The notes under the pieces are model-generated. The model saw nothing but the letters and a program-made list of their open reading frames with translations, made no database searches and was not told the origin of the DNA. This document shows, piece after piece, positions 50,871 through 64,000 of a stretch of DNA of 64,000 nt. How positions within the stretch are numbered: position 1 is the stretch's first letter; every line of letters begins with the position of its first letter. A program made the position numbers and the translations under genes. Source of the DNA: Ginglymostoma cirratum (lineage: Eukaryota); assembly GCA_024137785.1 (NCBI GenBank), contig JAHRHZ010000025.1:26892989-26956988 (forward strand). Direction: 5' to 3'.

Positions 50871-52549
50871 GAATATTAATGCTACAACAGTAAGCAGAGA
50901 GCTTGCTTTGCCTTCTCCACTGGGAGCCTGATTGCATACTGCAAGTAAAGAGCAAGGGGGCTCAGATGCATGGTTCCTTTCTTCCCCATTAAACTAGCAT
51001 TGATCAGTCACATACACACACACATCACAGAGCTGCTTCTATGCTTCCCCCCTCCCAACACACACACACTTCTCACCCCCTGTGCTGCATGCACGTATTC
51101 ACACCAGCACATAGCATACACACAAATGACAGGATTGATTCATGTCCTCCACAATGGGATAGAGCACCCTCTATTAGATGGGAAAGCATGTTTAAATTAA
51201 AAGATACTGCCCTACCTTCATCATTGTTGCTCCACTCATAATGGTGGGGAAAATGTTAAGCAATACCAGCTACATGCAGTGCACAGAGATTTACCCTTCT
51301 GTGTACATACAACAGAAAAACATATTGGGAAACAACATAATTGGTATCACAGATGTGTAAAGGGACAGTGTATATGTGTGTAATGTTTTACTCAAAGGAA
51401 CATATCTAAATAGAGCACAGGGATACATTCAGATATCTCTCAATTAATCTGAAGAGGCTCAGTTGGGATCAATCTGGATATTCCACTCATCCTTAATTAG
51501 AAGCCTTATCAAGTTACATTTTGCATGAGATTATAATGATATTCAGTATTCATCAAACAATAGTTCGTACAACAAATAATGGATTGAAGGGACAATACTC
51601 AAGAACCACACAAACAGAAAAGCCTGATAGCAGTAATCATGTTTTTGAAGTTTTTTGTTATGAATCAGTAAGGTATTTACACAGGGCCATAAGCAAGGTT
51701 ATTGGCATTATTTCCAATTGCAGGTATTATCGTGCACTGTTAGTTCCGTTTAAAAAACAAAGAATAGCATAAATTTGATTGCTAATCTCGTTCTGTTTGA
51801 ATAGATAAAGAATCTCCAGGAACCTTTTCTGTAAGTACACGATGAAATTATATTCTTATCTTTAAAAGAGCAATAGGGAATTAGCAGTGCTGCAGTCTAG
51901 TTATTATGAATAAATCATAGGATTGCTGAGATAAACATTGCACGTACCTGCAACGGCTACATTAATATATTATAAAATGGTAAAAGCAGTATATAATATA
52001 TGAATAATTTATCCAAAATGTACTATGAAATTAAGGAAGAAAAAAGACAGGGACATAAGCATAACGTGGTGAAATATTCAAGGTCGCAGAGAGAGGCATT
52101 AAAAAATCAGATCATCTGTTTCTTAAATATCAAATAGGATTGGCCAATTATTAAGCGATTTACGATTAGATGTAAATACACACAACTTTTGCTGTTTGAT
52201 TTTCATGTTGTATGAACACTTGTGTACCCCATGGAAATTAGACTTGAGGTTTCTTACAAAAATTGGCTGAAATGCAATAGTACGCAAACTCTAACGAAAA
52301 CTCTCTCCTGTGAATGAAATTGTATGCAGAATTATCATCCGTCCAGTTAGGTTGCATTTCACAGGCCTGGCCTGGTCCCAATGTGTTTGCTGACTAGCAA
52401 AGCAAGAATTAATTTCGCAGATACCTGCTAAACTAAGAGAAAGATGTAGCATTTATTAAAGCAACGATGGTTCCGCTTCCTATTATTGAAAGGTTAGGCA
52501 AGAGGGAAGGGCAAATTTGTCACGATTACACACGTCAGGTTTAAGAGTT

Positions 52550-52691
52550 GAGATAACAAGGTGTAGAGCTGGATGAACACAGCAGGCCAAGCAGCATCAG
52601 AGGATCTGGAAGGCTGACGTTTCGGGCCTAGACCCTTCTTCAGAAACCTTGTTATCTCAGATTCTCCAGCATCTGCAGTTCCTACTATCTC
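52550..52691. mobile_element. Family A hammerhead-bearing short element, inverted (two-arm) insertion
   Basis: Antisense arm 52550-52646 plus sense arm 52646-52691; TSD TAAGAGTTGAG at 52542-52552 and 52697-52707. Confidence 0.88.
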
Positions 52692-54040
52692 AAGTGTAAG
52701 AGTTGAGTCTTTTCTAGCTTCATAATTTGCTGCTTATGTTCACAATCTGGTTAGTATTGATTTTTGTTTTACCCACCCCATCTAGTTCAGGTAAATTAGC
52801 GCGGGTATGGCGCCGGGAACAGCATTTAAACTCCAAATTCCCACTTGCTTGCTTTTCCACCAGCTCAAGTAATCGCAAAGCAGTCGGAGAGGTTTCTAAC
52901 TCAGTAGAAAGTTTCGATTTGTAATAGTAAAGACAAGATGTAGCCTGACATACGAATACAAGAGATCAGATCGACACAGGGGCTGCTTTCAGCGCCTGGA
53001 TATCTTTCCTAAATCGCCTTCTGAGGCAATCGGATGACTGGAAACTAGGACATTCGAACAGGAAGACAAAATGTACAGATGTGGAAGGAATGGTAAAGAC
53101 ACCGGCTGCACGCTTCCTCGAAACGATCAGCAATGCAAAACACTGACTGGACAAAACATTTATCCGATCCAAATTGATTTTTAAAAATCTTTCCTTACAG
53201 GGGTTCAAATTGATAAATCCACAAAACTTCAATTATGGAGAACAAACCCCTCCTCCAATATCGCCAGACTCACAGCTGAATTCCTACTTCCTTGTCCAGG
53301 AGGACTGTAAGCTTTTTTTAGCGCCGTATCGTTGAGTTTAAACATTCATTAGATGTTTCTGATTCAGTAACATTGAAAAGAGTGATTCAGGCTCTCAACC
53401 TCAATATTGGAATTACTGTTTGCAGTTTAGACACAGAATGACACCACTTCACTACCAGGGTAGGGAATGTTTACTGTGCAACTATTTACTTGTCAGGACA
53501 GGGGTTTCTCTCTCTTTTCCCCCCGCTCCCCAACCAGAACTGCAGTTCTTAGTTACTTTAACAAGTCGGGTTCATTACAGATGAATACAAAGCAGAAGCA
53601 GCTTTGTACCGATGTCAGCTGTAGCCCAAATTAAGACCAGAGAATCTAAGTGTTGGGAATTGCAATTCCAATTGCCGGGTAACTTATTATATAAATCGAC
53701 TTTGAAACAAAAAGTCACTTTTGTTGACGTGTCCGTACACGAACAGTGCTCCTGGAATGAGATGACAGCGAGTACAGCTCTCTCTGTCCACGTGTGCATA
53801 GCTTGAGCCCAACCAGGGCGCAGTGTAGTCTCCGGCCTGAATGTTAAACAGATACAGCACAGGGGCCAGATCCCAGCTTGATGCTGGCATTCGCACTGCA
53901 ACATTCAAATACTGTTATATGCCGCGTCCAGCCACCACCGTAACTGAACACTTTACAACTTACATCTTTTAAAGTCTGTTTTCCCATTTATACTGTTTCC
54001 AGAGCCATTGTGTATCGATGTCAATAAATCACACCAAATT

Positions 54041-54110
54041 CGAAACGTTTCCTCTGTTTCTCTCTCTGCAGATGCTGCCAGACCTTCTGGGTTTCTCTGT
54101 TTTTGTTACA
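54041..54110 (+). mobile_element. Family B fragment
   Basis: cgaaacgtt..ctctgtttctctctctgcagatgctgccagacc. Confidence 0.65.
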
Positions 54111-54422
54111 TTTATTTAGACGCTGTCTTGCCAAACTTAGCGCAACCCATCTTCGCTCACAGTTTGCTTTGAAGTGAAAAGTGCAACCGAGTTTTTTATT
54201 GCTGAAATTGTACTCAATGTTTTATTAGGATTGCAAGAAGTTAGGTGCAAATTCTAGATGATTGTGTGTGTGAACCCCATTATAGTTACTTCGCCACTGG
54301 TTAACTCCAAGTGATAGTAACAGGAGACGTTCTGTCCCAGTTAAATGCTGCCAATACCCAGGCCTGCTCGACTCTGATTTTCAACGTGTTTGTTTGCTTT
54401 GGTTGGAGGAGGAAACAATACA

Positions 54423-61849: not shown

Positions 61850-62470
61850 TCAATTCACAGGAGACCTCTATTGTCAATTGCAGCATTTATGTTATCACGT
61901 GAAAAGAGAAGAGTGAAAATGTGGGTAAAACAGCAAAGGATAATAAAGAAAAGTCCACTGAAGAGAGGAGGAAAATAGGGAAAGTGAGAGTGGAAACAGC
62001 AAAAGTCAAAGTAAAAGGACAAAGGAATATAAGAGTGATGCACGAGTCACAGGAATCTTGGAAAGAAAGAAACAGAAAGAAAAGTGAACCCAAGAAAAGC
62101 AGAAGAGAGAACAAAGTTATGCACCTATAGAACATCTTTCATGAGCCCAGAACATTCTCAACTGCATTACAGCCAATAAGGCATGTTTGAAGTACAGTCA
62201 CTAATGCATGCATCACAGCAGTCAGTGAGTGCATAGCAAGCTCTCACAGACAGTTGTGTGACAATGAACAGATAATCAGTAGAGGGTATTTGTTCAGTGA
62301 TAACTTTCACTTCCCTATCCACTTCCTCCTTAAACCTCTCTCTGTTATTTCTTTCCTCCTTCTCCTGCAAAAAATGTGCAAGGAATGTTTAGACATTTTG
62401 CCATGGTAACCGAATCCATCTGTTCACCCATTGGTGCAACTTTCTTCTTATCCACTATGTCAAACATCCT

Positions 62471-62567
62471 GTTCTGAAGAAGGGTCACTGGACCCGAAAC
62501 ATTAACTCTAATTCACTCTCCACAAAGGCTGCCAGATCTGCTGAGCTTCCCCAGCAATTTCTGTCTT
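62471..62567 (+). mobile_element. Family B copy with well-formed hammerhead core
   Basis: gtt-CTGAAGA-a-GGGTC actg GACCC-GAAAC-att-aac (62471-62506); gtcaaaca repeated on both flanks. Confidence 0.8.
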
Positions 62568-62944
62568 AAGTCAAACACTTCTCTGTTCCCTAGCTTGACT
62601 TCTAGATCCTTGTCTTCCTGCAGTTTCTTTTTGATCTCTCCGCATATGCTTGTTGGGTACATCTTGCCCATGAGATTCATTTTATTCTCTTATAACCGCA
62701 ATTCTTACTGAAGTATTAACCAGCCAATTTCCTTTCACAGCTCCGTAGCAGTTGATATTGTAATTGGTTCACTTTTCTCAGGAGCTGTTTCTCTTTTTAA
62801 AACTGCTACAATCTTCCGCTTCTCAAAAAAAAAACCCTGGATCCTGATGTCCTAGCAATCTTCACTCCATCCCCAAACAGCTTGAATATGCTTTTCATAT
62901 TCATTGTCATGTTTCTATCTCTGATCTTAACCAAATGCCAAATA

Positions 62945-64000
62945 ACATGAAAGAAAAATACTGCAGATTCTCGAAATCTGAAATAAAAACCAAAATACTG
63001 GAAATATTCAGCAGTCCAGGCAGCCTCTGTAGGGAGAAAACAATGGGTGACATTTCATCTGAAGTGGATATAGTTAAAGATGTAACACAGTATGGAGCTG
63101 GAGGAACACACAGGCTAACAGCATCAGAGGAGCTGGAAAGTTGACGTTTCGGGTCGCGACCCTTCTTCAGAAATAACATGAAAGCAAAATACTGCAGATT
63201 CTCGAAATCTGAAATAAAACCCCAAAATACTGGAAATATTCAGTAGACCAGGCCAGCCATTTCTGAAGAAGGGTCCCGACCCAAAACGTCAACTTTCTTG
63301 CTCCTATGATGCTGCCTGGCCTGCTGGTTTCCTCCAGCTCCACACTGTGTTATCTCAGACTGCAGCATCTGCAGTTCTTACTATCTCAATAGTTAAAGAT
63401 TTAACAGTTTCTAAACAAACACAATGTTTGCAAAAGGGGCACAGGAGGAGAGAAGAATTTTTTATGACCTTTAAGAGCTAAAGGAAATGTCTATGATTTA
63501 GTGAAGGCAAGAGTGCTTAAATGGCAAAAGGAACAATGGTGTGAAGCAGATGAGGAGAATCATTACCAACAGTTACTTACTGAACAAACAAAGAACAAAT
63601 AAGAATAAAAAAACAAATAAAGAGATTATGATCTCAATGTTAAATCCGAAAAGGTCCTAATCATTACATGATTTGCTATCTGTCAAGTTTATGTTACATT
63701 TCATTGGAATAGTTTACGAGGTAGAGAACAGGAAGGCCATAGCCAGAATAACATAGAGAATTAAAGCAACCAGAAGACTGTGTTCATGCTTGTCGATTGA
63801 ACAAAAGGATGACTGCATCATGAGTAGCAAATGCAGGATACTGAGTTGAAAGAAATACAAGAAAAGTAATGTCTCACCTAGAGCGGTTGTCTGGGCACTG
63901 GACAGTGGGAAGAAAGGAGGTAAAAGGACATGTGTTGTATCTCTGCATCAGACATGATGGCATGGCGAAAAGAGTGTGGAGTGGGGTTGTGGAGGATATT
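62945..64000 (-). mobile_element. Penelope-like element 3' portion (family B terminus plus decayed GIY-YIG C-terminus)
   Basis: Family B end at 62945-63060. The minus strand at ~63630-63655 reads PFGFNIE (cf. the PLE P.GLN.E terminus), with coding-like debris to the window edge. Confidence 0.55.
63083..63387. mobile_element. Family A foldback insertion with locally copied spacer
   Basis: Antisense arm 63083-63173, spacer 63171-63258, sense arm 63259-63387; TSD ATAGTTAAAGAT(G/T)TAACA at 63070-63087 and 63389-63406. Confidence 0.88.

What the first reader, a model, noticed from the sequence alone, without database searches (positions are those of the whole stretch)
52542..63406. A ~130-nt hammerhead-headed mobile unit that inserts as TSD-flanked foldbacks
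Seen: five young copies in 11 kb (52550, 54512, 59148, 61681, 63083) of a unit 5'-tttCTGAAGA-a-GGGT(ctag/cgcg)RCCC-GAAAC-GTC...gttcctactatctc-3', with no ORF, tRNA head or poly(A). Four share one architecture and orientation: TSD (11-18 bp), antisense arm with variable outer end, sense arm with a near-fixed 3' end, TSD. Antisense arms always stop at the hammerhead 5' edge, and their outer ends share microhomology with the TSD (gag, cc, taaca), as expected for twin priming. Unlike L1 twin priming, the arms overlap by 13 to ~90 bp, making palindromes. Known: Penelope-like elements carry minimal hammerheads and inverted 5' parts. Inference: a non-autonomous, Penelope-mobilised mini-RNA whose insertion routinely uses both target strands. 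Note that stem I is only ~2 bp and the unit begins ~30 nt 5' of the GUC site, so self-cleavage may not define its end.
Basis: partly seen in the sequence, partly recalled or inferred. Interest (0 to 1): 0.75.

Follow-up and report, generated by a model that had tools for sequence, protein, structure and literature searches.

The report
Penelope retrotransposon end-stubs in shark DNA
These short mirror-image insertions in shark DNA are likely the ribozyme-bearing end pieces of a known jumping-gene class (Penelope-like elements), laid down in a pattern already described; the unexplained part is that nearly all copies stop at the same inner point.

Summary
The five insertions are real: 11-18 bp TSDs, a minimal-hammerhead head, four head-to-head foldbacks. 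Outer junctions of C, D, E and B-right recur in short-read contigs of two related organisms 3.6% and 6.6% away, so they are neither artefacts nor very young. The anatomy matches published Penelope-like element (PLE) insertions: inverted pLTR, a one-sided 30-40 nt tail, short TSD, captured host DNA. Here the short arm ends at unit 93-98 and the long arm at 130; both ends recur among the commonest contig break points. The evidence favours priming of both target strands over snap-back. A free-standing non-autonomous mini-RNA is not shown: a minority of copies seem to continue into longer sequence. Still unexplained: a fixed 5' edge about 30 nt before the predicted cleavage site, shared by sister families and whale-shark copies; I infer it is the RNA's 5' end. 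Insertion E holds an 88-nt copy of its own flank between the arms. No genome was held, Repbase and Dfam were not checked, and the scan noted the same thing in two other shark windows. Mostly ordinary.

The parts
52542..52552 (+). A: left TSD copy (last 4 nt shared with the arm end)
52549..52646 (-). A: short arm, unit 1-98, hammerhead core pattern at 52619-52643
52646..52691 (+). A: tail-bearing arm, unit 86-130
52697..52707 (+). A: right TSD copy
54494..54509 (+). B: left TSD copy, 16 bp
54512..54599 (-). B: short arm, unit 10-97
54599..55084 (+). B: tail-bearing arm; unit 1-7 inferred at 54599-54605, N gap 54606-55005, unit 48-126 at 55006-55084
   Evidence: right junction shared in runs X3, X4, X10
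55084..55099 (+). B: right TSD copy
59139..59296 (-). C: solo full unit 59277-59148 between TSD copies 59139-59149 and 59286-59296, with a partial extra TSD repeat at the 5' junction
61664..61680 (+). D: left TSD copy (13 exact, 17 with one mismatch)
61679..61738 (-). D: short arm, unit about 1-60
61744..61849 (+). D: tail-bearing arm, unit about 23-130
61850..61866 (+). D: right TSD copy
62940..63063 (-). K: older sister-family copy next to E; with 7 nt of its flank it is the source of E's spacer
63070..63087 (+). E: left TSD copy (12 exact, 18 with one mismatch; last 5 nt shared with the arm end)
63083..63173 (-). E: short arm, unit 1-93
63171..63258 (+). E: spacer, a 93% identical copy of 62940-63025, 4-nt microhomology at its left join
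63260..63387 (+). E: tail-bearing arm, unit 1-130 (core GAAA mutated)
63389..63406 (+). E: right TSD copy
62471..62566 (+). F: older sister family, solo, same 5' edge, ends near the inner site, TSD 8-11 bp
29003..29103 (+). H: older sister family, solo, same 5' edge, ends near the inner site, TSD 10-12 bp
35212..35312 (+). J: older sister family, same 5' edge, decayed
10928..11061 (-). L: older sister family with tail, same 5' edge, decayed, no TSD found
54040..54100 (+). G: older sister-family fragment starting at the 3' foot of stem II
34797..34849 (-). I: older sister-family fragment

Best explanation
The five insertions are TSD-flanked solo or head-to-head copies of a 130-nt hammerhead-headed unit that is likely the terminal (pLTR plus tail) segment of a Penelope-like retrotransposon, probably inserted by reverse transcription primed from both strands of the target. 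Inferred steps: (1) a PLE endonuclease would nick both strands 11-18 bp apart, leaving two 3' ends that each carry the future TSD; (2) one end would prime at the outer RT start site (unit 130) and the other at the inner site (unit 93-98) or at another internal point chosen by 2-5 nt of pairing with the target, which gives the one-sided tail; (3) each cDNA would run towards a common 5' edge 3-4 nt before the hammerhead core, most likely the 5' end of the uncleaved RNA, or stop earlier; (4) the two cDNA ends would be joined by end-joining repair, which in E copied 88 nt of neighbouring DNA. Shown: TSDs, arm ends, two recurrent 3' ends, fixed 5' edge, different centres, the flank copy. Not shown: the RNA, its promoter, cleavage, or the partner element.
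For: Two 3' ends 32-37 nt apart in A, B and E; the same places are among the six commonest listed loose ends per run, with heterogeneous flanks (run X10: 1091 and 1202 contigs at unit 96-97, 1345 and 1043 at about 130). This fits the 30-40 nt tail that Frangieh et al. map between two RT start sites, with both strands cut and extended. Solo sister copies F and H end near the inner site with a TSD, so that site primes without any foldback. In A the left arm holds unit 1-85, absent from the right arm, so it cannot be a simple DNA copy of it. Microhomology excess at short-arm ends, P about 6e-5. All four centres differ, as do those of 10 of 37 unit-bearing whale-shark gene predictions with an antisense arm before the sense arm; 8 of those 10 antisense arms reach unit 7 or less. 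Hammerhead pairs hold in 88.7% of 71 cells, against 11-52% when slid. A DKG-motif RT exists in bamboo shark (P0041, RVT_1 E=6.8e-8) and a 65% identical RT piece lies upstream of the unit on the same strand in 1 of the 37 predictions (P0016).
Against: No genome was held and no DNA links the unit to an RT-EN ORF; P0016 is a probably spliced prediction, 1 of 37, and LINE-like exons sit next to the unit in other predictions too. Frangieh et al. found initiation at sites not homologous to the target, whereas 3 of 4 short arms show microhomology. Later deletion in a palindrome centre could mimic the asymmetry of A. Only four foldbacks were counted. No compensatory change supports the hammerhead and shuffles do as well; the unit folds no better than shuffles (z -1.55 to +1.03); stem I is 2 bp in the young family. 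No consistent extra G at 5' junctions, which a capped template might leave (recalled expectation).
Confidence: 0.7

Rival explanations
1. A discrete non-autonomous 130-nt element: short master copies are transcribed by themselves and mobilised in trans. It is compatible with the insertion mechanism above and differs only in the source of the template.
For: Fixed 5' edge in 5 young arms seen plus B inferred and in 4 old copies; none of 12 insertions in the window extends into shared longer sequence; sub-families with diagnostic sites; unit bins about 1e5-fold deeper than unique bins (not a copy number); non-autonomous PLE derivatives are described.
Against: Weak shared continuations beyond both ends in loose-end consensus (agreement only 0.35-0.43) point to longer relatives; no promoter, tRNA head or transcript shown; no run on record as RNA.
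Confidence: 0.3
2. Ordinary 5' truncation: RT starts in the 3' pLTR of a full-length RNA and usually falls off at the hammerhead, so the edge is a stall site and not an RNA end.
For: Most PLE insertions are 5' truncated; min-HHRs are mostly solo and ascribed to truncated PLEs; D-sense, G and K start at the 3' foot of stem II, a plausible stall; old-family copies with shared upstream sequence seem to exist.
Against: The edge lies on the far (5') side of the structure, within 1-2 nt in three sequence families; a stall is expected at the near side (reasoning, not tested).
Confidence: 0.25
3. Snap-back or self-priming (Arkhipova 2013): one cDNA, or an antisense template, folds back and copies itself; central deletions came later.
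For: Published model for head-to-head PLE junctions; arms of one insertion always belong to one sub-family, and overlapping parts are identical in A, B and D (0 differences in 99 nt).
Against: A's and D's left arms hold sequence missing from the right arms; inner-site ends occur in solo copies with TSDs; centres are not hairpin-like palindromes; E's centre is flank DNA.
Confidence: 0.15
4. Non-LTR retrozyme: tandem hammerhead repeats cut to monomers, circularised and re-inserted.
For: Type I hammerhead head; retrozyme monomers are dispersed in vertebrates and related to pLTRs.
Against: No tandem copy in the window; ends are not set by the cleavage site and are not permuted; retrozymes carry canonical, PLEs minimal motifs.
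Confidence: 0.05
5. Assembly artefact from a very high-copy repeat.
For: B has a 400-N gap at its centre; overlapping arm parts are more alike than their age predicts.
Against: Unique-flank contigs of two other organisms enter both outer arms of D and E in the assembled orientation; TSDs; foldbacks in whale-shark predictions. The centres themselves were not bridged by any listed contig.
Confidence: 0.03

Closest known systems
EN+ Penelope-like element insertions with inverted pLTR and tail (Arkhipova 2013, PMC3846280; Craig 2021, PMC8557442)
   Same: Head-to-head inverted terminal segment, one arm 30-40 nt longer, overlap between arms, short TSD, host DNA captured between pLTRs, assembly trouble.
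   Different: Whole insertion is 130-305 bp with no ORF; TSDs 11-18 bp against 8-10 bp; capture in E is of the adjacent flank.
Minimal type I hammerheads of metazoan PLEs (Cervera and de la Pena 2014, PMC4209133)
   Same: Core boxes, extra nucleotide after position 9, G10.1-C11.1, palindromic ACGU in place of helix III; mostly solo; pairs on opposite strands 100-700 bp apart were noted.
   Different: Helix II 4-5 bp and helix I 2 bp (4 bp in old copies H and J); no shark example in the text read; activity untested here.
Poseidon of Anolis, PAc (Frangieh 2024, PMC11167929)
   Same: Two RT start sites bounding the tail about 100-150 nt downstream of the hammerhead; both strands cut and extended; cleavage not needed.
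   Different: PAc's ORF starts in stem II and initiation is reported without target homology; here no ATG at that place and 2-5 nt microhomology at 3 of 4 short arms.
Non-LTR retrozymes (Cervera 2020, PMC7229834; Li et al. bioRxiv 10.64898/2026.07.22.740005)
   Same: Short, non-coding, hammerhead-bearing, pLTR-related.
   Different: Defined by tandem units and circles; here dispersed, inverted, TSD-flanked.
L1 twin priming (recalled, not read)
   Same: Second target strand primes internally with microhomology, giving an inversion.
   Different: L1 arms do not overlap and end in poly(A); here they overlap by 13-93 nt.

Membership tests
EN+ Penelope-like element (terminal segment) | Minimal type I hammerhead in the terminal repeat | tested here: met
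   Core pattern enriched 7 against 0.91; pairs hold in 88.7% of cells but without covariation; fits descriptor features
EN+ Penelope-like element (terminal segment) | Optional 30-40 nt tail at one end; two 3' ends | tested here: met
   Ends at 93-98 and 126-130; both among top loose ends
EN+ Penelope-like element (terminal segment) | Inverted head-to-head copy with TSD, no poly(A) | tested here: met
   4 of 5 insertions; 10 of 37 whale-shark predictions, one of them marginal
EN+ Penelope-like element (terminal segment) | Physically joined to an RT plus GIY-YIG ORF in full-length copies | tested here: inconclusive
   No PLE ORF in the window; RT upstream in P0016 only; endonuclease-like pieces in P0020 and P0027 recognised from recall, not confirmed
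EN+ Penelope-like element (terminal segment) | Partial-tandem pLTR structure | not testable with these tools
   No genome held
Non-LTR retrozyme | Tandem units each with a hammerhead | tested here: not met
   None in the 64-kb window; rest of genome not seen
Non-LTR retrozyme | Self-cleaved monomer and circular RNA | not testable with these tools
   No RNA holder listed; ends do not match the cleavage site
SINE (tRNA, 7SL or 5S head) | Pol III RNA-derived head and simple-repeat tail | tested here: not met
   No tRNA, no Rfam match at gathering score, no poly(A)
MITE or DNA foldback transposon | Fixed terminal inverted repeats and fixed TSD length | tested here: not met
   Outer ends differ between arms and copies; TSD 11-18 bp
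Described Repbase or Dfam family | Match to a deposited consensus | not testable with these tools
   No such library offered

The most novel reading that the evidence does not exclude
The fixed edge is a transcription start (the old family's upstream consensus reads ATCA before GTTCTG in 4 of 4 runs, resembling a Pol II initiator; motif recalled). Shark PLE RT then initiates about 97 or 130 nt inside the 5' end of its own RNA and makes run-off cDNAs from both target strands, possibly on two RNA molecules. That would make these stubs a self-renewing, very high-copy class of PLE 'strong-stop' insertions and a genome-scale record that settles twin priming against self-priming for PLE inversions.
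Probability: 0.3. Interest if true: 0.6.

Novelty: new member of a known kind. Interest (0 to 1): 0.3.

Why it matters
How PLEs make inverted ends and tails is still called undefined in the literature read. A shark family with a very large number of tiny TSD-bounded copies is a convenient data set to test twin priming, to locate the RNA's 5' end and to ask what the hammerhead does if cleavage does not set the end. It also matters for annotation: the unit is built into dozens of spurious whale-shark gene models and breaks assemblies. It is not a new class of element.

Tried and rejected
No whole genome, so no genome-wide table. DNA patterns found nothing in viral, metagenome or prokaryote contigs, as expected for a vertebrate repeat. 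No RNA holder listed; run X16 is only a guessed RNA run and contigs cannot show starts or expression. No empty site was seen among the joints listed (15 shown, 4795 not shown). The joint 62471-62528 'opposite strands' could be a foldback or a contig between two copies; not used. Rfam miRNA hits on D are far below gathering score and reflect the hairpin. One search used a mis-registered structure and is void; redone. P0027 as an endonuclease end next to the unit: no homologue found. P0043's N-terminus has no match in the window. The window's POU protein was not in the collection, so the species is not fixed; 'shark' rests on about 80-95% peptide identity to whale-shark predictions. I and J face head-to-head 360 bp apart but share no TSD. 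Two of 39 protein hits (P0033, P0036) were dropped as unrelated repeats. Literature searches that found no shark-specific description; subscription journals, Lunse 2017 and the bioRxiv supplements (one chondrichthyan was sampled) could not be seen and may describe this family.
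Full report
Setting. The window is vertebrate DNA with an intronless POU-domain ORF at 43775-45136 (family name recognised from recall) and LINE fragments. 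No genome is held. The unit's sense translation matches whale-shark gene predictions at about 80-95%, so the host is a shark. Unit positions count from the first T of TTTCTGAAG in copy C (130 nt).

Observation. All five insertions are present. A: arm 1-98 on the minus strand, then 86-130 on the plus strand. B: 10-97, a 400-N gap, then 48-126. C: solo 1-130. D: 3-60 and 25-130. E: 1-93, an 88-nt spacer, 1-130. Exact TSDs are 11, 16, 11, 13 and 12 bp, each with a chance of about 0.001. The head fits the minimal type I hammerhead: the core pattern occurs 7 times against 0.91 expected, named pairs hold in 88.7% of 71 cells, but there is no compensatory change and shuffles score as well. The predicted cleavage site follows unit 31. 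There is no tRNA, tandem array or Rfam family at threshold. Seven older sister-family copies (F-L) share the head and general layout.

The antisense-then-sense order is symmetric, and four tails on one side has P=0.125. In B the letters before the gap read best as the start of the sense arm, so the antisense arm stops about 9 nt short of the edge and the gap likely hides about 40 nt. E's centre is a copy of its own left flank: 4 mismatches and 3 gap columns in 89, sharing private changes and 7 flank bases with K that the independent copy L lacks.

Independent data. I laid contigs of four runs on 55006-63700 (A and B-left not included). Runs X3 and X4 (organism A) and X10 (organism B) differ from the window by 3.6% (X3) and 6.6% (X10) in the listed pieces. 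Their unique-flank contigs run into B-right, C, and the outer junctions of D and E in the assembled orientation (both junctions of D in X3 and X10, both of E in X4 and X10). The insertions therefore predate these splits. No listed contig bridges a centre. Depth over the unit is about 1e5 times that of unique bins; the tool warns that this is no copy number. Of the 24 loose-end rows shown (7272 not shown), the young-family rows fall at unit 96-97 and about 130, and old-family rows at its 5' edge and tail end, with mixed flanks (agreement 0.35-0.43). A weak consensus shows through next to the junctions: upstream of the old family in all four runs, and downstream of the young unit. I read this as a minority of longer copies; it is a hint, not a demonstration.

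A profile of the unit's sense frame hit 39 predicted proteins; 2 were dropped as unrelated. Of the 37, 10 have an antisense arm directly before the sense arm (one on only 4 residues); 8 of these 10 antisense arms reach unit 7 or less, and the centres all differ. All 10 are whale-shark predictions. Gene models can be spliced, so this is a rough lower bound. One of the 37 (P0016) carries, upstream on the same strand, an RT piece 65% identical to a bamboo-shark RT with the DKG motif (DKG named as a PLE diagnostic). No DNA link between unit and ORF could be shown.

Mechanism. The 32-37 nt difference between the arms is the PLE tail. In the only purified system the protein cuts and extends both strands, starts at two sites that bound the tail, and does not need ribozyme cleavage. 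Four local facts favour priming of both strands on RNA over snap-back: solo copies F and H end near the inner site with TSDs; A's and D's left arms hold sequence absent from the right arms; short-arm ends overlap the TSD by 4, 0, 2 and 5 nt (P about 6e-5, post hoc); and E's centre looks like repair synthesis on the flank, joined over 4 nt. Later central deletion could mimic the second point, and the sample is four. The 5' edge, 3-4 nt before the core in 5 young arms (plus B, inferred) and 4 old copies, is not explained by cleavage. I infer an RNA 5' end; a stall site or a short master element remain possible.

What is known. Arkhipova 2013 (PMC3846280; passages and Discussion) describes an inverted pLTR 37 bp shorter than the direct one, overlapping by 15 bp, a 31-bp tail, 8-10 bp TSDs, unrelated DNA captured between solo pLTRs, and proposes self-priming. 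Craig 2021 (PMC8557442; passages) and Goubert 2022 (PMC8969392; passages) give the same layout as typical. Cervera and de la Pena 2014 (PMC4209133; parts 1-2 of 4) report thousands of solo minimal hammerheads and opposite-strand pairs. Frangieh 2024 (PMC11167929; parts 1-2 of 4; supplement text search empty). Li et al. 2026 (bioRxiv 10.64898/2026.07.22.740005; parts 1-3 of 5) tie retrozymes to pLTRs. Passages only: Schostak 2008 (PMC2377424; internal promoter), Weinberg 2019 (PMC6765202), Cervera 2020 (PMC7229834), PMC6155905 and PMC5753468, the last two with nothing on this family. Nine searches found no shark-specific account; Repbase, Dfam and subscription papers were out of reach. Two earlier notes of this scan describe the same thing in other shark windows and led me to Arkhipova 2013.

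Verdict. Real, and a new member of a known kind. It works like a PLE end; membership is met for hammerhead, tail and inverted TSD-flanked layout, and is inconclusive for the ORF link. Interest 0.3; the fixed 5' edge and the evidence for two-strand priming are the parts worth a genome-wide test.

Noticed in passing
window 52549-52561, 54512-54561/55006-55055, 61679-61714/61746-61781: Overlapping arm parts of A, B and D show 0 differences in 99 nt although B and D predate a 6.6% split (P about 0.003 for the 86 nt of B and D; Fisher 0.023 against non-overlapping parts, counts by eye). Could be arm-to-arm conversion, lack of CpG in that part, or assembly consensus. E, with a spacer, has 10 mismatches in 94.
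   Followed up: partly
window 52542-63406: All five young insertions lie in 11 kb of the 64 kb (scan-like P about 0.004); none near the POU gene.
   Followed up: partly
window 61744, 54040, 63060: D-sense, G and K all begin at the 3' foot of hammerhead stem II, a possible RT stall point.
   Followed up: no
run X3, joint 59273 to 55006 (table 5c): A head-to-head junction from another locus at depth 367 against about 13 for single-copy DNA: one foldback centre may itself be amplified.
   Followed up: no
window 43775-45136: Intronless 453-aa ORF with a POU and homeobox domain (class III POU by recall).
   Followed up: partly
window 17984-21078: About 3 kb G-rich minisatellite-like array giving long open frames on both strands.
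   Followed up: no
window 23434-24749 and 5492-5854: LINE-type reverse transcriptase fragments on the minus strand (recognised from recall).
   Followed up: no
P0001-P0039: The unit is built into 37 spurious or chimeric gene models, some fused to real genes such as MIF, plexin and a translation GTPase.
   Followed up: partly
window 63155-63166 minus strand: Stem II plus loop is a perfect 12-nt palindrome in E and near-perfect in A, which could allow intermolecular pairing.
   Followed up: no
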